The position numbers were made by a program, and so were the translations under genes. Below, piece after piece: positions 3,801 through 52,903 of a DNA stretch of 64,000 bases (position 1 is the stretch's first letter; each line of letters begins with the position of its first letter). Where the stretch lies: assembly GCA_029932915.1 (NCBI GenBank), contig JAOZPE010000002.1, forward strand, positions 7,546 to 71,545, given 5' to 3'. The notes beneath the pieces were generated by a model, which did not search any database, was not told the origin of the DNA, and was given only the letters and a program-made list of their open reading frames with translations. This DNA comes from Candidatus Krumholzibacteriia bacterium (GTDB lineage Bacteria > Krumholzibacteriota > Krumholzibacteriia > JAJRXK01).

Positions 3801-5246
3801 TCAGCTCACAGCCGGTGGGGTGCGGATGACCATCAGACGCAGTTCGGTCATCTCCTCCATCGCGAAGCGCAGGCCTTCCCGCCCCAGGCCCGAGTTCTTC
3901 ACCCCGCCGTAGGGCATGTGGTCGACCCGCCAACTGGGGATGTCCCCGATCACCACGCCTCCCACCTCGAGTTCGTCCCAGGCCTTCTGGGCCCGGTACA
4001 GATCGCGGGTGAAGACACCGGCCTGGAGCCCGTAGCTCGAGTCGTTCACCTCGGCCAGAGCCTCGTCGAAGTCGGAGAAACGGGAGAGGATTGCCACCGG
4101 CCCGAAGGCCTCCCGCGCGTAGATGCGGTCGTCCCGCCGCACGCCTTCCAGCAGGGTGGCGGGCAGCATGGCTCCCTCGCGTTTGCCGCCGCACAGGACG
4201 GTGGCGCCGTGCTCGACCGCCTCGTCGATCCACTCCTCCACCCGCCGGGCCTCCTTCTCCGAGATCATCGGACCGATGAAGGTGGCCTCGTCCTTGGGAT
4301 CGCCCATGGGCAGCGCCGACGCCCGTTCGACCAGGCGGCGCTTGAACTCCTCGTAGATCGACTCGTGGATGATGATGCGCTGGACGCTGATGCAGCTCTG
4401 GCCGGACTGGTAGAAGGCCCCGATGATCACCCTCTCGAGTGCGTCGTCCAGATCGGTGTCCTCGTCGATGATGCAGGCCGCGTTGCCCCCGAGCTCGAGC
4501 AGCACCTTCTTCCTTCCCGCCCGGGCCTTCAGCTCCCAGCCCGAGGCGGGCGAGCCGGTGAAGCTCAGCAGCTTCAGGCGGTCGTCGGTGGTGAAGAGAT
4601 CGGCGCCTTCGCGGCTGCACGGAAGGATGCTGAACGCGCCCTCGGGCAGGTCGGTCTCGGCGAGGATCTCACCGAGGATCAGCGCTCCGACCGGCGTGCG
4701 GCTCGATGGCTTCAGCACGAAGGGGCAGCCGACCGCCAGGGCCGGGGCCACCTTGTGGGCCACCAGGTTCAGGGGGAAGTTGAAGGGGGAGATGAGACTG
4801 ACCGGTCCGATGGGCACGCGCTTGTACATGCCGCGGTAGCCGCGGGCGCGGGCGGAGATCTCCAGTTCCATGACCTCGCCGCCCAGACGCGGCACCTCCT
4901 CGGCCGCGTAGCGGAAGGTGTCGATGAGCCGCTGCACCTCGCCCCGGCTGTCGCGGATGGGTTTACCCGCCTCGATGCACAGGGCCTGGGCCAGCTCCTC
5001 CGCTCGTTCCTCCAGGCGGTGCACGCAGTGGTAGAGCACGCTCTGGCGCTGGTAGGCGGGAAGCCGGCGCATGGCCTCCGCGGCCTCCGCGGCCGCCTCG
5101 ATTCCGTGCTCGATGGCCTCCTGGTCGGCGCGGGCCACGTAGGTGGCCACCTCGCCGGTGTACTTGTCCAGGACCGGCAGATCGCGGTTGGCCGCCACCG
5201 GCCGGTTCGCCAGGTAGTAGGGATAGCTCTCTTGCAACATGGTCAC
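3801..5246 (-). CDS. NAD(P)-dependent aldehyde dehydrogenase
   Basis: 481 aa with ALDH-family motifs: ELGGNAA (glutamate active site), FYQSGQSCIS (catalytic Cys), GSPASGWELKA. Confidence 0.9.
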   Translation of the reverse strand: MTMLQESYPYYLANRPVAANRDLPVLDKYTGEVATYVARADQEAIEHGIEAAAEAAEAMRRLPAYQRQSVLYHCVHRLEERAEELAQALCIEAGKPIRDSRGEVQRLIDTFRYAAEEVPRLGGEVMELEISARARGYRGMYKRVPIGPVSLISPFNFPLNLVAHKVAPALAVGCPFVLKPSSRTPVGALILGEILAETDLPEGAFSILPCSREGADLFTTDDRLKLLSFTGSPASGWELKARAGRKKVLLELGGNAACIIDEDTDLDDALERVIIGAFYQSGQSCISVQRIIIHESIYEEFKRRLVERASALPMGDPKDEATFIGPMISEKEARRVEEWIDEAVEHGATVLCGGKREGAMLPATLLEGVRRDDRIYAREAFGPVAILSRFSDFDEALAEVNDSSYGLQAGVFTRDLYRAQKAWDELEVGGVVIGDIPSWRVDHMPYGGVKNSGLGREGLRFAMEEMTELRLMVIRTPPAVS

Positions 5247-6604
5247 CTCGATTCCAGGGATGCTTCGGGCCGGCGATCGTCATCCTCACCGGCGGCCGGA
5301 CGCACCCGCCTCAAGACGGGCAGGATCAACATGGTATTGCTCAGGAAACGGCCCCCCAGATAGGCCACCGCGGCGCAGGTCGCCCCCGGCCAGTCGGTGA
5401 GGGCGATGGCCGCCCACAGCAGCAGGGCGATGCCGCTGAGTTCGAGGGCGGTGGCCCAGGTGATGGGGTCGGTATGGCGGCCGCTCACCAGGATGGCCCT
5501 CTCGACCGCGAGCAGCACGGAAAGGGCGGGCAGCAGCGAGAGGATCCGCGTCGGGGTGAGCGCGAAGCGCACCAGATCGGGGTGCAGGCCGCTGACGGTG
5601 GAGAACCAGAAACGCGAGAGCGGGGTGAAGGCGATCAGCGCCATCCCCGCGCTGACGGCCAGGGCCAGGCCGGCGGCGAAGCTCATCAGCGGCCGCATCC
5701 TCTTCCAGGCCGGATCCATCAGGGCGATGACCACGTCGTGGTAGGCCAAAGCCGGCGAGCGGAAGATGAAGGACAGCGAATTCACCACCGGCAGGACAGC
5801 CAGCGACTCCAGACTGTAGGGGGCGTGTCCCATGAACAGGGTGACCACTGGATAGGCCGCCAGGGAAATGGTGGAGGTCATGGCCAGAGGCACGTAGAAG
5901 CGGCCGATGCCGCGGTAGCTGAGGGTACGTTCGGAGCTGGCCGGCTCCATGAGGTCACGCATCGCCGTGCGGGCCATCCAGCGGCTCGCCAACGCTTCCA
6001 TGCACACGCCGGCACTCAGCGCGCCCGCTCCCACCCAGGCTCCGGCCAGGCCGGTGCCGCGATAGAGCAACAGGCCGGTCACCGCCATCGTCGACAGGCG
6101 CACCACGGTGCCGTAGGCCACCCTGCGGGTCATGCCGCTGCGGATGAGCAGACCCTGGTACAGACGGCGGTAGCCGATGGCTCCGGGCCAGGGCAGCAGG
6201 ATCCACAGGGAGATGTGGGTGAGACGCTCGACCTCCGGCGGCAGCTTCATCACATCGTGGGCCACCCAGCCGAAGAGGGGGGTCGCCAACAGGATCACCT
6301 GGAAGGCGGTGATGACGAAGTTCAAGGCGTAGGTGAAGCGGCGCAGGCGGCGGAAGTTCGGGCCGTCCTCGGCCAGCGCGGTCGCCGCGCTCATGATCAT
6401 GATCACCGGCGACTCGATGATGATGGCGAAGGCGAAGGCCACTCCATAGGCGGCCAGGTTGAACTTCGGTTCGCTCAGGCGGGCGATGATCGCGGCCAGG
6501 AAGGGGCCCTCGACCGCCATCATCAGCCAGGTGGCGGCCAGCGGCAGCCAGAACACCAGGATGCGGCGTCGGCTGAGGGCTTCTTCGAAGGCTTCTCTTG
6601 GCAT
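5243..6604 (-). CDS. polytopic membrane protein, MATE/MOP-superfamily-like (about 12 TM)
   Basis: Minus ATG at 6604 (MPREAFEE...), 453 aa, about 12 hydrophobic helices. Its stop overlaps the ALDH start by 4 nt, indicating an operon. The 5243..8521 ORF in the track is an artefactual 5' extension running antisense through htpG. Confidence 0.5.
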   Translation of the reverse strand: MPREAFEEALSRRRILVFWLPLAATWLMMAVEGPFLAAIIARLSEPKFNLAAYGVAFAFAIIIESPVIMIMSAATALAEDGPNFRRLRRFTYALNFVITAFQVILLATPLFGWVAHDVMKLPPEVERLTHISLWILLPWPGAIGYRRLYQGLLIRSGMTRRVAYGTVVRLSTMAVTGLLLYRGTGLAGAWVGAGALSAGVCMEALASRWMARTAMRDLMEPASSERTLSYRGIGRFYVPLAMTSTISLAAYPVVTLFMGHAPYSLESLAVLPVVNSLSFIFRSPALAYHDVVIALMDPAWKRMRPLMSFAAGLALAVSAGMALIAFTPLSRFWFSTVSGLHPDLVRFALTPTRILSLLPALSVLLAVERAILVSGRHTDPITWATALELSGIALLLWAAIALTDWPGATCAAVAYLGGRFLSNTMLILPVLRRVRPAAGEDDDRRPEASLESR

Positions 6605-6778
6605 GGTGCAGCGATGATAGCCCCTGACGGGGAGAAGGCAACGTGCGTGGGGCCGATTCGGCCGCCGTCGGCCCTTGCGGAGCGTGTGGCCCTTTTCTAA
6701 GCTCCTGCCCGAGCCCGGTTTCCACTGGCCCGCCATCGGCGGCGGGGGGAGTCCATCCATTCGAAGAGGTGCTCGATC

Positions 6779-8791
6779 ATGGCAACATCCTCCACCGGGC
6801 GTGAGACCCGCGAATTCCGCGCCGACCTGCGCCAACTGCTCGATCTCATCACCCATTCGCTCTACAGCAACCGCGAGATCTTCCTGCGCGAGCTCATCTC
6901 CAATGCCAGCGATGCCCTGGACAAGCTGCGTTTCGAGGCCCTGACCCACCCCGAACTGCGCGAGGACGGCGACGAGCTTCAGATCCGCCTGTTGCCGGAC
7001 AAGGAGGCGGGCACCCTGACCGTCTCGGACAACGGCATCGGCATGAGCCGCGAGGGCATCGCCGACGATCTGGGTACCATCGCCCGCAGCGGCACGGCCG
7101 CGTTCCTGGAGGCCCTGAAGCAGAGCGATGACGCCCAGCGGCCCGAACTCATCGGACAGTTCGGCGTGGGCTTCTATTCGGCCTTCATGGTGGCCGAGGA
7201 GATCACCGTCCGCTCGCGCCGCGCCGGCGAGAAGGAAGGCGTGCAGTGGGTCAGCCGCGGTCAGGGGGAGTTCTCCCTGGAGACCATCGAGAAGGAGAAG
7301 ACTGGCACCGACGTCATCCTGAAGCTGCGCGAGGATGCCCTCGAATTCCTCGAGCCCTATCGTCTGCGCGAGCTCGTCCGCAAGTACAGCGACTTCATCG
7401 AGCACCCCATCGTGATGGCCACCGAGAAGGAGGTCGACGGCGAGAAGAAGGTGGAGGACGAGGTGCTCAACAGCCGCAAGGCGATCTGGCTGCGCTCGCC
7501 GAGCGAGGTGTCCAAGGAGGACTACGCCGAGTTCTACAAGCAGATCGCGCGCGACTTCAAGGATCCGCTGGAGACCATCCACTTCAGCGCCGAGGGGGTC
7601 ATCGAGTTCAAGGCCCTGCTCTACATTCCCGAAGCCCCGCCCTGGGAGCAGCTCTTCGGTGAGAACAAGAATGGCCTGCACCTGTACATCCAGCGTGTCT
7701 TCATCATGGACGACTGCCAGGATCTGCTGCCCGAGTATCTGCGCTTCGTCCGCGGCGTCGTCGACAGCTCGGACCTGCCCCTGAACGTCTCGCGCGAGTT
7801 GCTGCAGGAGAATCCCCTGGCGGCGAAGATCCGCAAGAACCTCACCGGCAAGGTCCTCAAGACCCTCGCCGATATGAAGAAGAACGACCGGCCGCGCTAC
7901 GAGCGCTTCTTCAAGCGCATGGGAGCGGTGCTCAAGGAAGGCATCGCCCGCGACTTCGAGCGGCGCGACGAGCTGGCCGAGCTGCTCCTCTTCGAGAGCA
8001 CGGCGACCAAGGCGGGCGAGTACACCACCCTGGAGGACTACGTGTCCCGCATGCCCGCCGATCAGGAGGCCATCTGGTATCTCATCGGCGAGGAGAGGGC
8101 GGTGCTGGAGAACGCTCCCTTCGTGGAGGCCTTCCGCTCGAAGGGCCAGGAGGTCCTCCTGCTCACCGATCCCATCGACGAATTCCTCGTCCATTCGCTT
8201 CCCAGCTACAAGGACAAGCCCCTGCGGGCCGTCGACCGGGAGAAGGTGGAGGAAGAGGAGATCCCCGAGCTCATCGAGGAGAGCTATCGCCCCCTGCTGG
8301 ACCGTCTGAAGGAGTTGCTCGATGAGGAGGTCTCCGAGGTGCGGCTGAGCACCCGCCTGCGTGAGAGCGCTTCGTGTCTGGTCAGCCCCGAAGGCGCGCT
8401 GGGCTCGCACATGGAGAGGTTGATGCAGCGTCTGGGCCGGGAGGACGAGTTGCCCGTGACCAAGCGCATCCTCGAGCTGAATCCCGAGCACCCGGCGGTG
8501 CAGTCGCTGCGGGCGATCCACGAGCGCGACGGAAAGGACCCGCGGGTGGAGAGCTTCGGCCGCCTTTTGCTGGACGAGGCGATGCTGACCGAGGGCTCCC
8601 GGCCGAAGGATCCGGTCGCTCTCGCACGGCGCATCAACGATCTGCTGGTGGCGGCATCCGAAACCACCTCATCCTCGAGCGCTTCGAAGAGTCCGGCGGG
8701 CTCGATGGGAACGAGGGGTTCGAAGAAGCCGAAGACTTCAGAGAGCTCGAAGAAATCGAAGGCTCCAAAGGCGTCCGAGGAGAAGGAATAG
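6779..8791 (+). CDS. htpG: molecular chaperone HtpG (Hsp90) with an unusual Lys/Ser-rich C-terminal tail
   Basis: N-terminal HATPase motif LYSNREIFLRELISNASDALDKLRF. Full-length collinearity with HtpG. Tail ...SSSSASKSPAGSMGTRGSKKPKTSESSKKSKAPKASEEKE. Confidence 0.92.
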   Translation: MATSSTGRETREFRADLRQLLDLITHSLYSNREIFLRELISNASDALDKLRFEALTHPELREDGDELQIRLLPDKEAGTLTVSDNGIGMSREGIADDLGTIARSGTAAFLEALKQSDDAQRPELIGQFGVGFYSAFMVAEEITVRSRRAGEKEGVQWVSRGQGEFSLETIEKEKTGTDVILKLREDALEFLEPYRLRELVRKYSDFIEHPIVMATEKEVDGEKKVEDEVLNSRKAIWLRSPSEVSKEDYAEFYKQIARDFKDPLETIHFSAEGVIEFKALLYIPEAPPWEQLFGENKNGLHLYIQRVFIMDDCQDLLPEYLRFVRGVVDSSDLPLNVSRELLQENPLAAKIRKNLTGKVLKTLADMKKNDRPRYERFFKRMGAVLKEGIARDFERRDELAELLLFESTATKAGEYTTLEDYVSRMPADQEAIWYLIGEERAVLENAPFVEAFRSKGQEVLLLTDPIDEFLVHSLPSYKDKPLRAVDREKVEEEEIPELIEESYRPLLDRLKELLDEEVSEVRLSTRLRESASCLVSPEGALGSHMERLMQRLGREDELPVTKRILELNPEHPAVQSLRAIHERDGKDPRVESFGRLLLDEAMLTEGSRPKDPVALARRINDLLVAASETTSSSSASKSPAGSMGTRGSKKPKTSESSKKSKAPKASEEKE

Positions 8792-25221: not shown

Positions 25222-27558
25222 TCAGTTGAGGACGGGTAATCCCCAGCGATCGCGGAGGATCCAGACCAGGGCGGCCTGTGTCTTGGCGAAATCGAAAGCC
25301 AGGGGATGGAAACCCCAGATGAAGTCCTCACTCCCCTGACGGGGTTTCGTCGACGAGTAGGTGGTGATGGCCAGCCCGATGGGGACCTGGTCGAGAACGC
25401 TGCGCTCATATCCCAGTGGTCGGCATTCGGTGGCCGGATCATCGATGAAGGGTTCACCCGTTCGGGGATCGATCTCGTCCCGGGCCGCCCGCAGTGCAAA
25501 CATCGTCTTCTGACAGGGCCGGAGGGAGATGGTCACCGGTCGGCAGGAGACATTGCGGTTGTAGAACTCCTCGTAGTCGAACTTGTACAGCGGGTTGTTC
25601 TCGAGCCGGTCCTTCGATGGAGGAAGATCCTCGAGGACTCCCGATGAGCTGGGGTAGGAACGGCGGAACGCCTCGGGAACGACGGCGGTGATGAGCCGAT
25701 CGCACTGGGCGGTGCGTTTGGGAACCTGTTGTTCACACGCAACCGCTCCCATGGCGGGACGGATGACGTCCATGGCCTCCAGGCACCATGCATTCATGGG
25801 CCAGTCGTAGTAGGACACGTCGTCCTGGGAATAGATGACGGGATAGCTCGATATCGGGTCGGCGATGGCCCCATGCATGACGTACGGCCCGGTCATCAGG
25901 ACGTTTCCCGTCTTCTTCATGTAGAGCTGCATCCAATTGTAGGTGGGGCGATCGAGGGGAAAGATCCGTGCCCGCAGCGCGGAATCCGTCTTTCCTCCCT
26001 TGGTGAACCAGATGATGCTCTTGTACATGCTGATGGTCTCGAAGGTACAACGTTCGGGTTCGGTGTTGACCTTCAGGATGTCCACTTTCGCGTTCCAGTC
26101 CTCGACCCTACCTTCCAGATGGGCGGTCCAGGTGGACAGCCACATTCTCTGCAAGGCCAACTGGCTCGAAGTGTTCTGCCAGCCCCAGTCGTCGATCAGC
26201 AGAAGATTCCTCTGTTGTCGAGGACGGGGAATCGGGACCACGCTGAGATTGTACGTGCCGCGGGTGATGGCCCCGGAGTTGTCGCGTACCTGCACGACGA
26301 AGACGTGATCGCCACCTCGAAACGAGCGGCGTTCGATGGACCGCCATTGGAGCCCCCAACCCACGGACCAGCCCGGGTCGTCCTCGTCGTTGACGTCCTG
26401 AACGTCCCAGCCGTAGCGATAGGATTGGATGATTCCGCCATAGCGCGCAGCGTCCGCCGACCACTGGAACTCGATGGGTTGCTCGGCGATGACCCTGCTG
26501 GAGACGACAGCGTGCTGGCTGACGAAGGTCCGGCTTCCCAGATAGTGATCGGTGACGGTCAGGGAAGGGTACTTGCCCGAAGTGGTGCGCATGTGGCGTA
26601 CGTTCACGTTCCAGTCGAAGGTCGGGGTCACCGCGCCGGAGCGGTCGCGGGCCTGGACGGCGAAAAGCAGACGGCGGTCGATGTCGAAGAGGGGGAGGGT
26701 CACGATCCTGCCGCTGTCGTTGGGGGCGTCGTAGGCGATCCATCGACTCCACGCCTCGTCGGGCAAGAGCGCGATGGGATTCAACTCCGTATAGTCGGGC
26801 TGATTGAGGCATTCGTTGTCATCGAGATGGATCAGCTCGTCCAGTGGAGGGGGAAGTTCGCCGAGATCCAACAGGACATACCGCACGGCATCGGGTCGAC
26901 CCAGCGGATCGTCTGGATCGTTGACGGTCCAACCGAAGGTGAGCTTCCGGGTGGAGGACAGACAGGTCGTGGTGCTCGCCCGTGTCGGGTAGTCGATGAC
27001 GACCTTCGGCGCGATGGTCGTTGCGGTGAAGCTCTCGTGGGCCGGACTGGGATCGCGGGCGCCTTGATCATCGATGGCTCGGACGAAGAAGGTATGGGTC
27101 TGCCACCATCGGTAGGTGCCGTCCGATTGGTCGGGATCGTCGACGTCGTCGGGGAAGGAATCGAGGTCGGCGGAGACCACGAAGGTGGAATCGTAGGCGG
27201 TCGTCCGATTCCATGGCAGAGCGAGGGTGTCCTCGCGGTCGACGATTCCGTCGGGACCGTTGTCACTGATGCGCCACTCGAACGCCTCCACCGTTCCGTC
27301 GGGGTCGCTGCCCGCCCAGAAGAAGCTCACCTGGAAGGAGGCCGCATCCAGGTTGGGCGGGGCGATGGAAATGGACGTGTCCGGCGGGAGATTGGCGGCG
27401 GTGTCACCCTCGATTCCTTCACTCCAGCCACATCCCGCCAGCGACGATCCGAGGGCCAGCGCCAGGATCCAGGCATCCGGGATCGCCTGTGCGAGACCGG
27501 AGAGGAAACCTCTGGGGAGGACTCCCGTAGTTCGAGGGTGATCGCGGTGGGGAGTCAT
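25222..27558 (-). CDS. large lipoprotein (about 779 aa) with repeated Ig/FN3-like modules and an uncharacterised C-terminal domain
   Basis: ATG 27558. Signal peptide plus lipobox WILALALGSSLAGCG. Repeated F.W...DPDG...YRY-type modules. Confidence 0.5.
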   Translation of the reverse strand: MTPHRDHPRTTGVLPRGFLSGLAQAIPDAWILALALGSSLAGCGWSEGIEGDTAANLPPDTSISIAPPNLDAASFQVSFFWAGSDPDGTVEAFEWRISDNGPDGIVDREDTLALPWNRTTAYDSTFVVSADLDSFPDDVDDPDQSDGTYRWWQTHTFFVRAIDDQGARDPSPAHESFTATTIAPKVVIDYPTRASTTTCLSSTRKLTFGWTVNDPDDPLGRPDAVRYVLLDLGELPPPLDELIHLDDNECLNQPDYTELNPIALLPDEAWSRWIAYDAPNDSGRIVTLPLFDIDRRLLFAVQARDRSGAVTPTFDWNVNVRHMRTTSGKYPSLTVTDHYLGSRTFVSQHAVVSSRVIAEQPIEFQWSADAARYGGIIQSYRYGWDVQDVNDEDDPGWSVGWGLQWRSIERRSFRGGDHVFVVQVRDNSGAITRGTYNLSVVPIPRPRQQRNLLLIDDWGWQNTSSQLALQRMWLSTWTAHLEGRVEDWNAKVDILKVNTEPERCTFETISMYKSIIWFTKGGKTDSALRARIFPLDRPTYNWMQLYMKKTGNVLMTGPYVMHGAIADPISSYPVIYSQDDVSYYDWPMNAWCLEAMDVIRPAMGAVACEQQVPKRTAQCDRLITAVVPEAFRRSYPSSSGVLEDLPPSKDRLENNPLYKFDYEEFYNRNVSCRPVTISLRPCQKTMFALRAARDEIDPRTGEPFIDDPATECRPLGYERSVLDQVPIGLAITTYSSTKPRQGSEDFIWGFHPLAFDFAKTQAALVWILRDRWGLPVLN

Positions 27559-27757
27559 GGTCCGGTGTCCGCTGCCTTTGAGGTCGGTCTCGTCCGTACG
27601 AGTGGATACGGCCGGACCGCTCAGGGGAATCTGGCCCGAAGGGCTGGACTTCATCACTGGAGAATACGATCTTGAAGGCCGAAGAAACAGGCCTCGTCCG
27701 AAATCTCCGGTCTTTTTCAGCAGATGGGCCCCAGGGGTGTTTCAAGGGTACTCTCCC

Positions 27758-48334: not shown

Positions 48335-48470
48335 GGCGACGGCAACAGGTCCAGACGATGACAGACCCCGGCGATGGCAACGGACCCGGACGACGAGCCC
48401 CGGCGATGGCAACGGACCCAGATGACGACGGGCCCCGGCAAGGACGACGGGCCCAGGCGATGGTACCGAG
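48335..48470. repeat. about 3.5 tandem copies of a ~31-bp repeat in the 5' intergenic region of the PPIase gene
   Basis: ccccggcgatggcaacggacccggacgacgag / ccccggcgatggcaacggacccagatgacgacggg / ccccggcaaggacgacgggcccaggcgatgg. Confidence 0.55.
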
Positions 48471-48487
48471 TCCAGAGGAGATCTGTG

Positions 48488-49576
48488 ATGCGCCGCTTCC
48501 TTCGTTTCCTGCTTCCACTGGTGGCCGTGGGTGTCCTTCTCGCGCCGTTTTCCCTTCGCGCCGCTGACGATCTGGACGCGGTCACAGGGGACGACGGCAT
48601 CTACGCGGTGTTGCAGACCGATATGGGCACCATCGTCTGCCGTTTGCTGTGGCGCGACGTGCCCTTGACGGTGGCCAATTTCGTCGGTCTGGCCGAGGGA
48701 ACGCGTTCCTTCCTCGACGGAGAGACGGGCGAGACGGTCGAGCGTCCCTTCTACGAGGACCTCCTCTTCCACCGGGTGATCCAGGGCTTCATGATCCAGA
48801 CCGGCGATCCCACGGGCAAGGGGGACGGCGGTCCGGGTTACCGTTTCAACAACGAGATCGATCCGGAGTTGAAACACGACCGTCCCGGTACCATGTCGAT
48901 GGCGAACATGGGACCGGGGACCAACGGCAGCCAGTTCTTCATCACCGAACGGGCGGCCCCCTGGCTGGACGGCAAGAATCCGGTCTTCGGCCGCGTCGTG
49001 TCGGGCATGGACGTGGTCGAGGCGATCTCCGCCGTTCCCACCGACAAGGATCGGCCCGTCGAGCCGGTGCATCTGCAGAGCGTGAAGATCATCCGGAGGG
49101 GAAGGGATGCCCGGCACTTCGACGCCGAGGCCACCTTCGCCCGCATGAAGGACCTCAGTGAGGAGCAGCTCACGGAACTCCGCAGCGAGCGCTTCATGGC
49201 CAGGATGGAGAAACTCGAGAAGAAATCACACCGGGCGAAGGACGGGAGCCGCTATGTCGTCGTCCGCAAGGGCAAGGGAGACAAACCCCGTCCGGGCGAG
49301 GCCATCCAGGTGCACTATGTGTGCTATCTGCCCGACGGCAAGGTCGTCGAGACCACCCGGCGTTCTCCCCGTCCGCTGACGCTCACTGCCGGTGAGCCCC
49401 GCCGGGGTCTCGACTGGGAGCGGCAATACCTTCAGATGAAGCCCCATGAATTGCGCTGGGTCTTCCTTCCTCCCGAACTCGCCTTCGGCCATCGGGGTAT
49501 CCCCGGAGTGGTCCCCCCCGACTCACCCCTGGTGTTGCAACTCGAACTGGTCGGGGTGTCGAAGGGCGAAGACTGA
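48488..49576 (+). CDS. secreted bifunctional peptidyl-prolyl cis-trans isomerase: cyclophilin domain fused to C-terminal FKBP domain
   Basis: GAGGAG RBS. Signal peptide MRRFLRFLLPLVAVGVLLAPFSLRA. Cyclophilin motifs FHRVIQGFMIQTGDP, SMANMGPGTNGSQFFIT. C-terminal FKBP-like VHYVCYLPDGKVVETT...GHRGIPGVVPPDSPLVLQLELV. Confidence 0.75.
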   Translation: MRRFLRFLLPLVAVGVLLAPFSLRAADDLDAVTGDDGIYAVLQTDMGTIVCRLLWRDVPLTVANFVGLAEGTRSFLDGETGETVERPFYEDLLFHRVIQGFMIQTGDPTGKGDGGPGYRFNNEIDPELKHDRPGTMSMANMGPGTNGSQFFITERAAPWLDGKNPVFGRVVSGMDVVEAISAVPTDKDRPVEPVHLQSVKIIRRGRDARHFDAEATFARMKDLSEEQLTELRSERFMARMEKLEKKSHRAKDGSRYVVVRKGKGDKPRPGEAIQVHYVCYLPDGKVVETTRRSPRPLTLTAGEPRRGLDWERQYLQMKPHELRWVFLPPELAFGHRGIPGVVPPDSPLVLQLELVGVSKGED

Positions 49577-49789
49577 CGATCTTCGAAAGTGCGATCCTTG
49601 CGAAAAACCTTGCCCCTGGGGCTGCTTTGCGTTTATTTGCCGCTGCTGGTTAGCACGGGTCGCACAGGGACCCCTCATCGACGCGGCGCCGAGCGCCGCG
49701 AGTGGGACCTCCCCAGGACTCGTTGTCGATCGTGAAACGCCGGCGCGGACCGGTACATCGTTTGGCAATTCAACCCAAGGAGGCCCATC

Positions 49790-50086
49790 GTGGCCAAGAA
49801 GAAGACCACAGCCAAGAAGAAGGCTGCCCCCAAGCGGAAGGCCGCTCCCAAGCGCAAGGCTGTCGCCCGGAAGAAGACCACCAAGCGCGCGAAGAAGAAC
49901 GCCATGGAGATGTTGCTCGTCGGCAGCAAGACCAAGGCTGCATTGAAGGGCCATGGAGTGAACGTCGGCGGCGACGCCATCGAGGGTCTCAACGGTGTGA
50001 TCCACTGGTACATCGAGCAGGCGGTCAAGCGTGCGAAGGCCAACAAGCGCAAGACCGTGCGTGCCCACGATTTCGTGGTGATGTAG
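49790..50086 (+). CDS. histone-fold (DUF1931/Bd0055-like) DNA-binding protein with a Lys/Ala/Pro-rich H1-like N-terminal tail
   Basis: GTG 49790 with AAGGAGG 7 nt upstream. N-terminal AKKKTTAKKKAAPKRKAAPKRKAVARKKTTKRAKK. C-terminal SKTKAALKGHGVNVGGDAIEGLNGVIHWYIEQAVKRAKANKRKTVRAHDF fits the histone-fold pattern (compare HMfB ...SDDARITLAKILEEMGRDIASEAIKLARHAGRKTIKAEDI). Confidence 0.6.
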   Translation: MAKKKTTAKKKAAPKRKAAPKRKAVARKKTTKRAKKNAMEMLLVGSKTKAALKGHGVNVGGDAIEGLNGVIHWYIEQAVKRAKANKRKTVRAHDFVVM

Positions 50087-50105
50087 ATCCACCACCGATC
50101 GCCGT

Positions 50106-50184
50106 GGAAGGAAGGGCGCCCCGCGTGCGCGTGTTCCTTCCCGCCGATTCAAGGGGCCGTCCCGTTCGGGGCGGCCCCTTTCAC
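50106..50184 (+). terminator. two stem-loops downstream of the histone-fold gene; the second is followed by TTTC
   Basis: ggaaggaa-(20 nt)-ttccttcc, and ggggccg-tcccgttcgggg-cggcccc tttcac. Confidence 0.5.
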
Positions 50185-50314
50185 GTCGGCTGGGCTCAAG
50201 CTCTCCCTTGCCCGCATGGTCGAATGATCCTACGCTCGTCGTCCCCTTCGGACGGTCTCGTGCCTCAGGCCGTCTCGACAGGCAGGATCTTCGTTCCCAG
50301 AAGGAGAGCGCGTT

Positions 50315-52903
50315 GTGAAGCGGCGTCCATCGGTGTCACACATCCCCTGCGTTCTTGCGTTCCTCTTGTTGACCACGTTCTTCACCGTCCAAGGTTCATG
50401 GGCTGGAGACAGCGAGGGCCTTCCCGATTACTGGGGTGAGTCCACCTGGCTCACCTCGGCACCGGGGGTCTCCGACGATCTGGCCGCGGGTCTGTTCAAT
50501 CCCGCAGCGTATTCCGTCGTCCAGGACGCCGGTTTCTACCTGGGCTGGCGCAACAACCGCGAGCTGGGTCTGTACCAACAGGGAAGGGCCTTCACGGGCG
50601 AGTCGAACGACTTCACCGGCATCCTGTCGTTGCACAACCTGAGCTTCTCCTACCAACGCTTCGACCTGAAGGATGACTTTCGGGCCACCCTTCCCGGGGC
50701 GGGCGACCTGGCCAGCGGCGCCACCGATGAATACTCGCTGAGCTTGTCCTCAGGAGACCGCAGTCATTCCAGCGGGCTGGCCTACACGTGGTCCGGCGGC
50801 GACCGGACCTTCCTTCCCCGGCACAAACGACTCACCATGGGTATCCTCGAAAGGGGAAGCCATCTGTCGTTGGGGATGGCGGGGAACTGGGACCTGGAGA
50901 ACGGCGATCTGCAGGGGCAGGCCGACCTGGGCGTGCGGCCCTGGGGAAACCGCGTCACCTTCTACGGCGAGATCGAGGCCACGGCCGGCCGCAGCCTCGC
51001 CGGCGGCTACGGTGTTGAAGGCCATCTCTTCCGCGGACTGCGTCTGTCCGCGCGTTACCGCGACGGCGGCCGCCTGTCCGTGGGTCTTGCCCTGTCCTTC
51101 GGTCCGACGCGCCTGATCGGCGCAGGTCACGGGGACGGCGACGGGTCCAACCAGGAGAGCTACGCGCTGCAGGTCGGCGGCCAGAGGGAACCGGCCCTGT
51201 TGCCTTCCCTGGACGAGATCGGAGGCAGCCGGCGCAAGATGGAGTGGAACGGTCCGATGCCGTATCGCCGTTACCGTCTCTTCGACGAGCGCCGGACCTT
51301 CCTGTCCGCCCTCACGTCGATCGCCCGGGCGAGTGAATCGCCCGCGGTCCATACCCTCGTGCTCAACCTCTCGGGCATGCGGGTCCGCGGCGAACAACTC
51401 TGGGAGCTGCGCCAGCAACTCGAGGCGGCCCAGGAGCGGGGCAAGCGGGTGGTGATCTACGCCGACCGCCTCGGCCTGTTCTCGACCATGCTGGCCACCG
51501 TGGCCGACGATCTGTGGCTCGATCCGCAGGGCAATCTCGATCTGCGCGGCATCTCGTGGGGGAAGACCTACTACCGGCGGGCCCTGGACAAGCTGGGTCT
51601 GGGTGTGGAGGAGTGGCGCTTCTTCAAGTACAAGTCGGCCTACGAGGTGCTCTCGCGCACCCACCAGAGCGAGGCCGACCGGGAGCAGCGTCAGCTTCTC
51701 ATCGACGACTACTACGAGGAGGCCCGGGCTGCGATCGCCGCTTCCCGCGGCCTCAGCCCGGAGGCCTTCGACACGATCGTCGACACCCGAGGCTACGTCA
51801 CGCCGGCCGAGGCCCTCGAACTCGGACTGGTCGATCACCTGGGGAGCTTCGACGACGCGATGAAGGCGGCGAAGAAGGCCGAAGCGGCCGCCCGGGAACC
51901 CGGGCCGGACGGCGCAGTGGACACGGTACTGGGCGATCCGGTGTGGGGTGGTCTGCGCTGGGGGGAGCCCGATGAGATCGCTGTCCTGTATGCCATCGGG
52001 GAGTGCTCGATGGACAGTGGCATCGACGCCCGGCGCCTGAGCAAGGAGATCGAGAAGGCCCGAAAGAACCGCAAGGTGAAAGCGGTGGTCCTGAGGGTCG
52101 ATTCCCCCGGGGGCGACCCGCTGGCCAGCGACCTGGTGGCTCGTCAGCTGCTGGAGACGATGAAGGTCAAGCCGGTGATCATCTCCCAGGGCAACGTGGC
52201 GGCCTCCGGAGGCTACTGGATCAGCATGTACTCCCATGCGCTGGTGGCCTCGCCCATCACCCTGACCGGCAGCATCGGGGTGATCGGCGGCTGGATCTGG
52301 GACGAGGGCTTCGGGGACAGAATCGGTTTCGACTACAGCCAGGTGAAGCGCGGCCGGCACGCGGACATGGGCGGAGGCATCCAGCTTCCCTTCCTCGGGG
52401 CCACCCTGCCTGCACGTCCTCTCGACGACGACGAGCACGCCCGGATGGAGAAGGTCATCCGCGGCATGTATGCCGACTTCGTGTCGCAGGTGGCCCGGGG
52501 CCGCAAGATGAGTGAGACGGCCGTCGACTCGATCGCCCAGGGACGGGTGTGGAGCGGACGGCGGGGCAAGGAGATCGGACTGGTCGACGAACTGGGAGGC
52601 CTGTGGCGGGCCATCGAACTCGCCAAGGAGAAGGCGGGGATTCCGGCCGGCGAAGGGGTGAAGCTGGTGGAGGGTCCGTCCCTGGGTTGGATCAATCCGG
52701 AGTTGTTCAAGCTCTCGTTCGGCTTCGGCGGCGGCGCAAGCGAATTCGATCCTCTCTCCGGCGACCTACGGCAGCCCTTCAGCGGCTGGATGGGTCTGTC
52801 ATCGGAGGAATTCGAGTACCTGCGGGCGGTCTTCGGTCACCCGGGCCGGCCGGTGTTGCGCACTCCGCCCGTGCAGATCCACGAGGGCTCGCAGGGCGAG
52901 TAG
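50315..52903 (+). CDS. sppA: signal peptide peptidase SppA (67K-type, tandem S49 domains) with an extra ~300-aa N-terminal beta-rich domain
   Basis: GTG 50315 with AAGGAGA RBS. Signal peptide. Second S49 domain with nucleophile GNVAASGGYWIS. First (degenerate) S49 domain VVIYADRLG. Confidence 0.8.
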   Translation: MKRRPSVSHIPCVLAFLLLTTFFTVQGSWAGDSEGLPDYWGESTWLTSAPGVSDDLAAGLFNPAAYSVVQDAGFYLGWRNNRELGLYQQGRAFTGESNDFTGILSLHNLSFSYQRFDLKDDFRATLPGAGDLASGATDEYSLSLSSGDRSHSSGLAYTWSGGDRTFLPRHKRLTMGILERGSHLSLGMAGNWDLENGDLQGQADLGVRPWGNRVTFYGEIEATAGRSLAGGYGVEGHLFRGLRLSARYRDGGRLSVGLALSFGPTRLIGAGHGDGDGSNQESYALQVGGQREPALLPSLDEIGGSRRKMEWNGPMPYRRYRLFDERRTFLSALTSIARASESPAVHTLVLNLSGMRVRGEQLWELRQQLEAAQERGKRVVIYADRLGLFSTMLATVADDLWLDPQGNLDLRGISWGKTYYRRALDKLGLGVEEWRFFKYKSAYEVLSRTHQSEADREQRQLLIDDYYEEARAAIAASRGLSPEAFDTIVDTRGYVTPAEALELGLVDHLGSFDDAMKAAKKAEAAAREPGPDGAVDTVLGDPVWGGLRWGEPDEIAVLYAIGECSMDSGIDARRLSKEIEKARKNRKVKAVVLRVDSPGGDPLASDLVARQLLETMKVKPVIISQGNVAASGGYWISMYSHALVASPITLTGSIGVIGGWIWDEGFGDRIGFDYSQVKRGRHADMGGGIQLPFLGATLPARPLDDDEHARMEKVIRGMYADFVSQVARGRKMSETAVDSIAQGRVWSGRRGKEIGLVDELGGLWRAIELAKEKAGIPAGEGVKLVEGPSLGWINPELFKLSFGFGGGASEFDPLSGDLRQPFSGWMGLSSEEFEYLRAVFGHPGRPVLRTPPVQIHEGSQGE

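What the first reader, a model, noticed from the sequence alone, without database searches (positions are those of the whole stretch)
49790..50086. Bacterial histone-fold protein with an H1-like lysine-rich N-terminal tail
The 98-aa product has a 60-aa C-terminal region that fits the histone fold as seen in archaeal HMfB and the Bdellovibrio Bd0055/DUF1931 group (SK.K..LK..G.N...DAI..L...I......A...AK...RKTV.A.DF). The first 37 residues are a K/A/P-rich basic repeat (AKKKTTAKKKAAPKRKAAPKRKAVARKKTTKRAKK) resembling eukaryotic H1 tails or HctA/AlgP. Described bacterial histones are rare and essentially tail-less, so a tailed bacterial histone would be an unusual nucleoid protein. The gene has a strong RBS and its own terminator hairpins, which suggests a highly expressed stand-alone unit. 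HtpG in the same window also carries a K/S-rich tail.
Basis: partly seen in the sequence, partly recalled or inferred. Interest (0 to 1): 0.7.

Follow-up and report, generated by a model that had tools for sequence, protein, structure and literature searches.

The report
Tailed bacterial face-to-face histone gene
This small gene from an uncultured bacterium encodes a genuine histone of the already described bacterial "face-to-face" type carrying a long lysine-rich tail; such tails were reported as common in this family in 2024, so it is a clean new member, not a new kind of protein.

Summary
Window 49790..50086 (+) encodes a 98-aa protein with a 39-residue disordered tail (net charge +19) and a 59-residue alpha3-truncated histone fold.

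The fold is well supported. It matches the solved bacterial histone HLp by sequence (E 1e-10 alone, 4e-17 as a family profile). The AlphaFold2 model superposes on HLp at 1.1 A. The tetramer-interface triad that defines face-to-face (FtF) histones is present as R81/N85/R87, whereas the dimeric histone HBb has Ser and Asp at the first two positions.

The tail is translated. A conserved AAGGAGG precedes the GTG start, Met39/41 have no such site, 108 of 119 close homologs contain the MAKK-type start motif, and tail indels against a syntenic relative are in frame.

The novelty premise fails. Schwab et al. 2024 report positively charged tails in most bacterial FtF histones, and longer tails exist in this family (51 aa). 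The DUF1931 assignment is also wrong (0 of 30 members hit PF09123), and the H1 likeness is compositional only.

Most likely function: an abundant nucleoid protein that forms tetramers wrapping about 60 bp, with the tails adding multivalent electrostatic DNA binding. No long-tailed bacterial histone has been studied experimentally.

Verdict: new member of a known kind. Interest 0.3.

The parts
49716..49736 (+). Conserved block in the 5' leader or promoter region (GGACTCGTTGTCGATCGTGAA). Function unknown.
   Evidence: 100% identical in the syntenic relative L027 although the coding tail has diverged. Unique in the window with up to 3 mismatches, 0 expected by chance. Found only in the loci of this lineage. 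No Rfam family matches.
49777..49783 (+). Shine-Dalgarno sequence AAGGAGG, 6 nt upstream of the start codon
   Evidence: Read directly. AAGGAGG is conserved at the same position in L027, and AAGGAG precedes the MAKKK start in L026. No comparable site precedes Met39 or Met41.
49790..50086 (+). Histone gene: 98 codons plus TAG, GTG start, 10.7 kDa, pI 11.3
   Evidence: The exact protein is found on 7 metagenome contigs. 549 homologs at E <= 1e-3.
49790..49906 (+). N-terminal lysine-rich disordered tail, residues 1-39 (MAKKKTTAKKKAAPKRKAAPKRKAVARKKTTKRAKKNAM), net charge +19
   Evidence: AF2 pLDDT 43-64 with no secondary structure. Composition and family comparison. In-frame indels of 24 and 6 nt against L027.
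49794..49881 (+). Imperfect 18-nt (6-codon) tandem repeats inside the tail-coding region, including AAPKRK twice
   Evidence: Tandem Repeats Finder: period 18, 3.3 copies, 78% match; period 36, 2.4 copies. AAPKRK occurs twice.
49907..50083 (+). Alpha3-truncated histone fold, residues 40-98: alpha1 45-54, L1, alpha2 61-84, L2 with RKTV, one-turn alpha3 92-94. FtF tetramer triad R81/N85/R87, RD clamp R87-D94.
   Evidence: AF2 pLDDT 84-95. Foldseek: HLp 9qt1_A TM 0.92, rmsd 1.1 A, 46% identity. Residue mapping to HLp. Family invariants.
50106..50141 (+). First downstream hairpin (GGAAGGAA...UUCCUUCC), dG -19.3 kcal/mol
   Evidence: Not conserved in L027.
50151..50180 (+). Second downstream hairpin: 13-bp G+C-rich stem, GUUC loop, followed by UUU. 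Probable transcription terminator or 3' stabiliser.
   Evidence: dG -28.1 kcal/mol. Conserved in L027 with two compensatory base-pair changes. Only sub-threshold Rfam matches of the terminator-hairpin type.

Best explanation
The gene encodes a nucleoid-associated histone of the bacterial face-to-face (FtF) subfamily of alpha3-truncated histones.

Shown:
- The C-terminal 59 residues form a histone fold closest to Leptospira HLp.
- The residues HLp uses to dimerise, to form its tetramer and to contact DNA phosphates are largely conserved.
- The N-terminal 39 residues are a translated, disordered polycation.

Inferred by homology to HLp:
- Two chains form the handshake dimer.
- Two dimers close into a ring-like tetramer through R81/N85/R87 against H93/F95.
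- About 60 bp of DNA wraps non-specifically around the positively charged rim, via S46-K47, K49, K53, G61 and K88-T89.

Inferred from the analogous lysine-rich tails of Deinococcus HU and mycobacterial Hlp/Ku:
- The four tails (+76 per tetramer) add low-affinity, multivalent electrostatic contacts.
- These contacts raise DNA affinity, neutralise charge and can bridge neighbouring duplexes, so the particle compacts DNA more strongly than a tail-less histone would.
- Tail length drifts between lineages (0 to about 51 residues) by expansion and contraction of short AAG-rich repeats.

The gene is monocistronic, with a strong ribosome-binding site and a conserved terminator hairpin. This is consistent with high constitutive expression but does not prove it.
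For: - Sequence to solved structures: HLp 9qt0 E 1.1e-10 over residues 38-95; HBb E about 4e-4.
- Family profile against PDB: HLp 4.2e-17, HBb 1e-9, HTkC 3.2e-7, nucleosomal archaeal histones about 1e-2.
- AF2 model and Foldseek: HLp TM 0.92, rmsd 1.1 A.
- HLp functional residues mapped: R49/N53/R55/F63 to R81/N85/R87/F95; RD clamp R55-D62 to R87-D94; DNA contacts S14, K15, K17, K21, G29 and T57 all identical. HBb has S and D at the positions of R81 and N85.
- R81, N85, R87, T89 and D94 are invariant in 30 family members.
- HLp forms tetramers and wraps about 60 bp (PMC12701072).
- Tail translated: conserved SD, in-frame indels, and 108 of 119 close homologs containing the MAKK-type start motif.
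- Tail disordered.
- Precedent for tail function: the DrHU N-terminal tail gives low-affinity multivalent binding and DNA bridging (bioRxiv 10.64898/2026.08.18.745388); PAKKA repeats of mycobacterial Ku and Hlp (PMC3553676).
- Tails noted as common and positively charged in bacterial FtF histones (PMC11390915).
- 18-nt tandem repeats in the tail DNA.
Against: - The tetramer and the wrapping are inferred from one characterised homolog at 45% identity.
- Two of the six HLp tetramer-interface residues differ (S52 to A84, T61 to H93).
- L2 carries RKTV as in the dimeric HBb and nucleosomal histones, whereas HLp has RTTV.
- Tail function has never been measured for any bacterial histone. For HLp the authors concluded that the short, nearly tail-less form is the real one.
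- In mycobacterial Ku, removing the lysine-rich extension increased affinity, so 'tail = higher affinity' is not guaranteed.
- Expression level is unknown.
- Whether this genome also has HU or IHF is unknown; none is present in the 64-kb window.
Confidence: 0.75

Rival explanations
1. It is a dimer-type bacterial histone like Bdellovibrio HBb/Bd0055. It binds as a dimer that bends DNA or coats straight DNA, and does not form a DNA-wrapping tetramer.
For: - HBb is the second-best solved match.
- The L2 motif is RKTV as in HBb.
- Two HLp tetramer-interface residues are substituted.
- The oligomeric state was not testable here.
Against: - The two residues whose absence defines the bacterial dimers (R48 and N52 of the FtF profile; PMC11390915) are present and invariant here (R81, N85), whereas HBb has S and D.
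- The family profile scores HLp 7 orders of magnitude better than HBb.
Confidence: 0.13
2. The tail is an annotation artefact. Translation really starts at Met39 or Met41 and the protein is a tail-less 58-60 aa histone, as was concluded for Leptospira HLp (63 versus 77 aa).
For: - In-frame ATG codons occur at residues 39 and 41.
- Precedent from HLp.
- Tail-less relatives exist (L001/P0087, P0098, P0112).
- AAG-rich DNA upstream of a gene could be non-coding.
Against: - AAGGAGG lies 6 nt before the GTG and is conserved in L027, with AAGGAG in L026. No SD precedes Met39/41.
- 108 of 119 close homologs contain the MAKK-type start motif.
- Tail-length differences against L027 are in-frame (24 and 6 nt), while the 5' leader is better conserved than the tail DNA.
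- Acidic residues are almost completely excluded across more than 100 tails.
Confidence: 0.04
3. The histone fold here is not a chromosome-packaging module. It serves another role, for example as a protein-protein interaction scaffold like NF-Y/TAF histone folds, or as an RNA- or ribosome-associated basic protein.
For: - Histone folds are used for non-chromatin roles in eukaryotes, and some prokaryotic histone variants are thought to have lost DNA binding (PMC11390915).
- No chromatin-related neighbours: the gene sits between a PPIase and SppA.
Against: - The DNA-phosphate-contacting residues of HLp are conserved.
- The fold alone has pI 10.0 (net +5) and the whole protein pI 11.3.
- The closest characterised relatives (HLp, HBb, HTkC) all bind DNA.
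Confidence: 0.05
4. The real gene is the antisense ORF 49675..50052 (-), 125 aa, and the histone-like frame is accidental.
For: The antisense ORF is longer and has GC3 of 0.83.
Against: - Long antisense ORFs are routine in 66% GC DNA.
- The plus-strand product has 549 homologs, a solved-structure match and a confident fold.
- It has its own SD and terminator.
Confidence: 0.01

Closest known systems
HLp, bacterial face-to-face (FtF) histone of Leptospira perolatii (PDB 9QT0/9QT1/9QT2; Hu et al. 2025, PMC12701072)
   Same: - Same alpha3-truncated histone fold (rmsd 1.1 A, 45-46% identity).
- Same tetramer triad R/N/R, RD clamp and C-terminal Phe.
- Same S-K 'paired ends of helices' motif and alpha1 lysines that contact DNA.
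- Stand-alone small gene.
   Different: - HLp is 63 aa with only about 7 disordered N-terminal residues; this protein has a 39-residue, +19 tail.
- L2 is RKTV here and RTTV in HLp.
- Interface residues S52 and T61 are A84 and H93 here.
- Different genomic neighbourhood: no SMC, MAP or DUF350 neighbours.
Tailed bacterial FtF histones as catalogued by Schwab et al. 2024 (PMC11390915)
   Same: This is exactly the described class: FtF signature residues plus a non-conserved, positively charged N-terminal tail. It is found in Planctomycetota, Myxococcota and other mostly uncultured bacteria.
   Different: Nothing categorical. This tail is at the long end for its close clade (39 aa against a median of 22), and its translation is supported by SD and indel evidence.
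HBb/Bd0055, bacterial dimer histone of Bdellovibrio bacteriovorus (PDB 8CMP, 8FVX, 9EZZ)
   Same: Alpha3-truncated fold (rmsd 1.0-1.5 A, 38-39% identity), RKTV L2 loop, RD clamp, S-K motif.
   Different: HBb lacks the FtF tetramer residues (S and D where this protein has R81 and N85), is tail-less, and binds as a dimer.
HTkC and other archaeal FtF histones (PDB 9F2C)
   Same: Same fold and FtF tetramer architecture (rmsd 1.2 A, 32-33% identity). DPANN and Asgard relatives share the RAKANKRKT motif.
   Different: Archaeal FtF histones generally lack tails (confirmed for L002-L004 and L019).
Lysine-rich extensions of other bacterial nucleoid proteins (Deinococcus radiodurans HU N-tail; mycobacterial HupB/Hlp and Ku PAKKA repeats) and the eukaryotic H1 C-terminal domain
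   Same: K/A/P-rich, disordered, low-complexity, repeat-derived polycationic arms attached to a folded DNA-binding core. Shown to give multivalent low-affinity binding, DNA bridging or end apposition.
   Different: The folded domains are unrelated (HU fold, Ku, winged helix). There is no sequence homology, no S/TPKK motifs here, and the similarity is convergent composition only.

Membership tests
Histone-fold superfamily | Helix-loop-long helix-loop-helix architecture, superposable on solved histones | tested here: met
   AF2: alpha1 45-54, alpha2 61-84, alpha3 92-94, pLDDT 84-95. The Foldseek top 9 hits are all prokaryotic histones with TM 0.84-0.92, followed by eukaryotic H4 and H2B.
Histone-fold superfamily | RxTxxxxD motif in L2/alpha3 with the Arg-Asp 'RD clamp' | tested here: met
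   R87-K-T89-V-R-A-H-D94. All four motif residues are invariant in 30 relatives and map to HLp R55/T57/D62.
Alpha3-truncated (alpha3) prokaryotic histones | Alpha3 reduced to about one turn, with the chain ending a few residues after the RD-clamp Asp | tested here: met
   DSSP helix 92-94; the protein ends 4 residues after D94.
Bacterial face-to-face (FtF) histones | Conserved dimer-dimer interface residues: R48/N52 of the FtF profile, equal to HLp R49, N53 (and R55) | tested here: met
   R81, N85 and R87 align to HLp R49, N53 and R55 and are invariant in the family. HBb has S and D. Definition from PMC11390915 and PMC12701072.
Bacterial face-to-face (FtF) histones | Closer in sequence to FtF members than to other histone classes | tested here: met
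   Family profile against PDB: HLp 4.2e-17, HBb 1e-9, HTkC 3.2e-7, nucleosomal about 1e-2.
Bacterial face-to-face (FtF) histones | Forms a closed homotetramer (the feature the class is named for) that wraps about 60 bp of DNA | not testable with these tools
   The structure tool predicts single chains only, and no biophysics is available. Four of the six HLp interface residues are identical.
Bacterial dimer histones (HBb/Bd0055 type) | Absence of the FtF interface Arg and Asn | tested here: not met
   Both are present (R81, N85).
Pfam PF09123 DUF1931 (pseudodimeric doublet histones, e.g. Aquifex Aq_328) | Match to the PF09123 profile; two histone folds in one chain | tested here: not met
   No PF09123 hit for this protein or for any of 30 relatives, even at E <= 10. 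The protein has a single fold. Note that some database records, including the PDB name of HLp, loosely use 'DUF1931 domain-containing protein'.
Pfam PF00808 CBFD_NFYB_HMF / NCBIfam archaea_histone | Profile match above the curated cut-off | tested here: not met
   No PF00808 hit for this protein. 4 of 30 relatives hit below threshold, best E 0.017. NCBIfam NF043032 scores 17.3 bits against a cut-off of 50. Homology is real but these profiles do not capture the family.
Linker histone H1/H5, chlamydial Hc1 (HctA), AlgP | Winged-helix globular domain (H1), or a family-specific profile match; S/TPKK or KPAA-type repeat motifs | tested here: not met
   No Pfam hit of these families at E <= 10. No PDB H1 hit with the tail-containing profile. 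No [ST]P[KR][KR] motif. The resemblance is compositional only (K 38%, A 26%, P 5%).

The most novel reading that the evidence does not exclude
The long tail is not just extra positive charge. It may work as a built-in 'linker-histone-like' or regulatory module. Four 39-residue arms per tetramer would bridge neighbouring particles into a condensed higher-order bacterial chromatin. Tail length would be tuned by repeat expansion, and tail lysines could be targets of reversible acetylation. That would be an independent bacterial origin of tail-regulated histone chromatin.
Probability: 0.1. Interest if true: 0.75.

Novelty: new member of a known kind. Interest (0 to 1): 0.3.

Why it matters
Bacterial histones were recognised only in 2023-2025, and only two, HBb and HLp, have been characterised. 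Both are effectively tail-less. Bioinformatic surveys say most bacterial FtF histones carry positively charged tails, but nobody has measured what such a tail does.

This gene and its relatives give a clean case. Tail translation is supported by the ribosome-binding site and by in-frame indels. Close relatives have tails from 0 to about 50 residues on an almost identical fold. That is a natural deletion series for asking whether tails change DNA affinity, bridging or compaction.

The family is also invisible to Pfam and NCBIfam, so it goes unannotated in most genomes. As a discovery in itself, however, it repeats what is published.

Tried and rejected
- **Pfam and NCBIfam scans.** No PF09123 or PF00808 hit, and only a sub-threshold NCBIfam archaea_histone hit. 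This shows a blind spot of those profiles and does not count against the fold.
- **PHROGs.** Only a weak hit to a family of unknown function (E 0.025). There is no sign of phage origin.
- **Sigma-70 promoter and terminator consensus scan.** No promoter found, and the downstream hairpins were not called because the U-run is short. Folding was used instead.
- **Genomic context as a functional clue.** The order PPIase-histone-SppA is conserved only in one close relative (L027). It is absent in L001, L026 and L028, so it is lineage synteny and carries no functional link.
- **Search for HU, or for a second histone, in the window.** Nothing found. A 64-kb window says nothing about the whole genome.
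- **Organism identification.** The exact species is not among the GTDB representatives, and cluster look-ups returned no names. HtpG points weakly to Planctomycetota (59%), while SAH hydrolase points to Myxococcota or Acidobacteriota (77-79%). There are no tRNAs. The phylum stays unresolved, but the organism is clearly bacterial.
- **Rfam around the gene.** Only sub-threshold hairpin matches.
- **My own GC3-based gene map.** It wrongly preferred antisense ORFs at the histone and HtpG loci, so it was not used as evidence.

Full report
**Observation.** Window 49790..50086 (+) is an intact ORF with a GTG start and TAG stop.
- Codon-position GC is 0.55/0.41/0.87, which is typical of coding DNA in this 65.9% GC window.
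- AAGGAGG lies at 49777-49783, 6 nt before the start.
- Residues 1-39 (MAKKKTTAKKKAAPKRKAAPKRKAVARKKTTKRAKKNAM) are 38% Lys, 10% Arg and 26% Ala, with no acidic residue and a net charge of +19.
- This is the only stretch in the six-frame translation of all 64 kb with at least 8 Lys in 20 residues.
- Two hairpins follow the stop codon: 50106-50141 (dG -19.3) and 50151-50180 (13 bp, dG -28.1). The region folds with z = -4.2 against shuffles.
- Only UUU follows the hairpins, so the consensus terminator scan missed them.

The protein hits neither PF09123 nor PF00808. Among 30 relatives, none hits PF09123 and only four hit PF00808 below threshold. NCBIfam archaea_histone scores 17 bits against a cut-off of 50. 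The direct evidence is nevertheless strong:
- phmmer against PDB sequences gives HLp of Leptospira perolatii (9QT0) at E 1.1e-10 over residues 38-95, and Bdellovibrio HBb at about 4e-4.
- A profile of 30 family members gives HLp 4.2e-17, HBb 1e-9, archaeal HTkC 3.2e-7 and nucleosomal archaeal histones about 1e-2.
- An AlphaFold2 model built on the family alignment has a disordered tail (pLDDT 43-64) and a confident core (84-95), with alpha1 45-54, alpha2 61-84 and a one-turn alpha3 92-94.
- Foldseek against the PDB returns HLp first (TM 0.92, rmsd 1.1 A, 46% identity), then HBb and HTkC, then eukaryotic H4 and H2B.

**Which kind of histone?** The literature separates bacterial alpha3-truncated histones into two types. 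[quoted passage not shown] 'Bacterial dimers' such as HBb lack those two residues (PMC11390915). [quoted passage not shown]
- Mapping through the ungapped alignment gives R81, A84, N85, R87, H93 and F95. HBb has Ser and Asp at the positions of R81 and N85.
- R81, N85, R87, T89 and D94 are invariant across 30 relatives.
- The HLp residues that contact DNA phosphates (S14, K15, K17, K21, G29, T57) are all identical here.

By every sequence criterion the protein is a bacterial FtF histone. It is neither a Bd0055-type dimer nor a DUF1931 protein; DUF1931 proper is the separate cluster of pseudodimeric doublets. Tetramer formation itself could not be tested with the tools available.

**Is the tail real?** For HLp the authors concluded from the Shine-Dalgarno position that the shorter, nearly tail-less form is the true product, so this had to be checked. 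Here the evidence goes the other way:
- AAGGAGG precedes the (M/V)AKKK start in the window and in the syntenic relative L027, and AAGGAG precedes it in Acidobacteria bacterium Mor1 (L026). Nothing comparable precedes Met39 or Met41.
- 108 of 119 close homologs contain the MAKK-type start motif, and acidic residues are almost absent from their tails.
- Tail-length differences between the window and L027 are 24 and 6 nt, both in frame. The non-coding leader is better conserved than the tail-coding DNA.
- The tail-coding DNA contains imperfect 18-nt tandem repeats, including AAPKRK twice. This suggests length change by repeat expansion and contraction.

**Is a tailed bacterial histone unusual?** No.
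- Schwab et al. [quoted passage not shown]
- My own sampling agrees. The word-indexed search found 549 homologs. Among the best 119, tails range from 3 to 39 residues apart from one 51-residue miscalled start, with a median of 22 and about 47% K+R.
- The window's 39-residue tail is the longest of that close set, apart from the miscalled start.
- The exhaustive search with the fold alone found 233 clusters at 50% identity. These include longer and more repetitive tails, such as P0294 with 51 residues and three AKTTKKAPAKK units.
- More distant FtF histones of Latescibacterota and Krumholzibacteriia carry a short MAKAAKKAA tail. DPANN archaeal ones carry none.
- The 'H1-like' label is compositional only: no winged helix, no S/TPKK motif, and no H1, Hc1 or AlgP profile or PDB hit.

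**Context and organism.**
- The exact protein occurs on seven metagenome contigs, the longest a 137.6-kb scaffold.
- The neighbours are a cyclophilin-FKBP PPIase upstream and an SppA-type S49 peptidase downstream. This order is kept in one related 1.1-Mb contig (L027) but not in L001, L026 or L028. It is therefore lineage synteny and gives no functional clue.
- The gene looks monocistronic. It has a 213-nt upstream intergenic region containing a perfectly conserved 21-nt block, its own SD, and a terminator-like hairpin conserved with two compensatory pairs.
- No Rfam family matches.
- The organism is an uncultured bacterium of unresolved phylum. HtpG's named relatives are Planctomycetota at 59%. 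SAH hydrolase's are Myxococcota and Acidobacteriota at 77-79%. The nearest named histones are from Planctomycetota, Acidobacteria Mor1 and Myxococcales.

**Mechanism.**
- Shown: a histone fold with the FtF signature and conserved DNA-contact residues, plus a translated, disordered, +19 tail.
- Inferred from HLp (tetramer in solution, about 60 bp wrapped, nucleoid reorganisation in E. coli): handshake dimers pair into a ring tetramer that wraps DNA non-specifically.
- Inferred from analogous tails: the Deinococcus HU N-terminal tail gives low-affinity multivalent binding and DNA bridging, and PAKKA repeats of mycobacterial Hlp and Ku appose DNA. By analogy, the four tails here would add electrostatic, multivalent contacts that strengthen binding and bridge duplexes.
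- Caveats: removing the Ku tail increased affinity, and no bacterial histone tail has been tested.

**Verdict.** It belongs to a published class whose tails have already been noted, so it is a new member of a known kind. The remaining interest is practical. This clade is a well-supported natural series of tail lengths on a nearly constant fold, no Pfam or NCBIfam model reaches threshold for this family, and tail function in bacterial histones has not been studied experimentally.

Noticed in passing
window 6779..8791 (+); tail at about 8660..8788: HtpG (670 aa) ends in a K/S-rich tail of about 43 residues (ETTSSSSASKSPAGSMGTRGSKKPKTSESSKKSKAPKASEEKE). Its relatives are 620-636 aa and cover only 92-93% of the query, including an 83%-identical one, so the tail is specific to this lineage.
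   Followed up: partly
window 49690..49789, especially 49716..49736: The 5' leader of the histone gene is better conserved between the window and relative L027 than the tail-coding DNA. It includes a perfect 21-nt block, GGACTCGTTGTCGATCGTGAA, that is unique in the window. This may be a promoter, operator or leader element. No Rfam match.
   Followed up: partly
family members P0243-P0249, P0255, P0258, P0262, P0265: Tail-less tandem doublets (118-132 aa) made of two copies of this FtF-like fold were the top-scoring representatives in the exhaustive search. They are distinct from the DUF1931 doublets by their sequence similarity to this singlet.
   Followed up: no
family members P0251, P0253, P0264, P0275: Variants with no N-terminal tail but an acidic, Glu/Ala/Pro-rich C-terminal extension of 35-60 residues on the same fold. 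This is the opposite charge arrangement to the window's protein.
   Followed up: no
family members P0280, P0304, P0301: Two doublets begin with a signal-peptide-like hydrophobic segment. One 650-aa protein carries the histone fold at its extreme C-terminus, after a region with a sigma-70 region-4-like helix-turn-helix.
   Followed up: no
window 49675..50052 (-) and 5243..8521 (-): Long antisense ORFs with high GC3 overlap the histone gene and HtpG. A naive GC3-based gene picker chose them over the real genes. This is an artefact of high-GC DNA.
   Followed up: yes
window 25222..27675, both strands: Overlapping ORFs of 811 aa (-) and 648 aa (+) with no Pfam match at E <= 1e-5 on either strand. 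The coding strand and the identity of this 2.4-kb region were not resolved.
   Followed up: no
L027 4617..9843 versus window 48374..52903: The order DUF445 - ArsP permease - cyclophilin/FKBP PPIase - histone - SppA - Bax1-I is conserved in a 1.1-Mb contig of a related organism, with one extra gene inserted after the histone. That relative's histone tail is 28 aa, against 39 aa here.
   Followed up: yes
whole family: No Pfam or NCBIfam model reaches threshold for this histone family. The precomputed Pfam column is empty for all 120 listed homologs, and source names range from 'hypothetical protein' to 'histone H3/H4' (JGI) and 'DUF1931 domain-containing protein' (NCBI). The family is therefore under-annotated.
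   Followed up: partly
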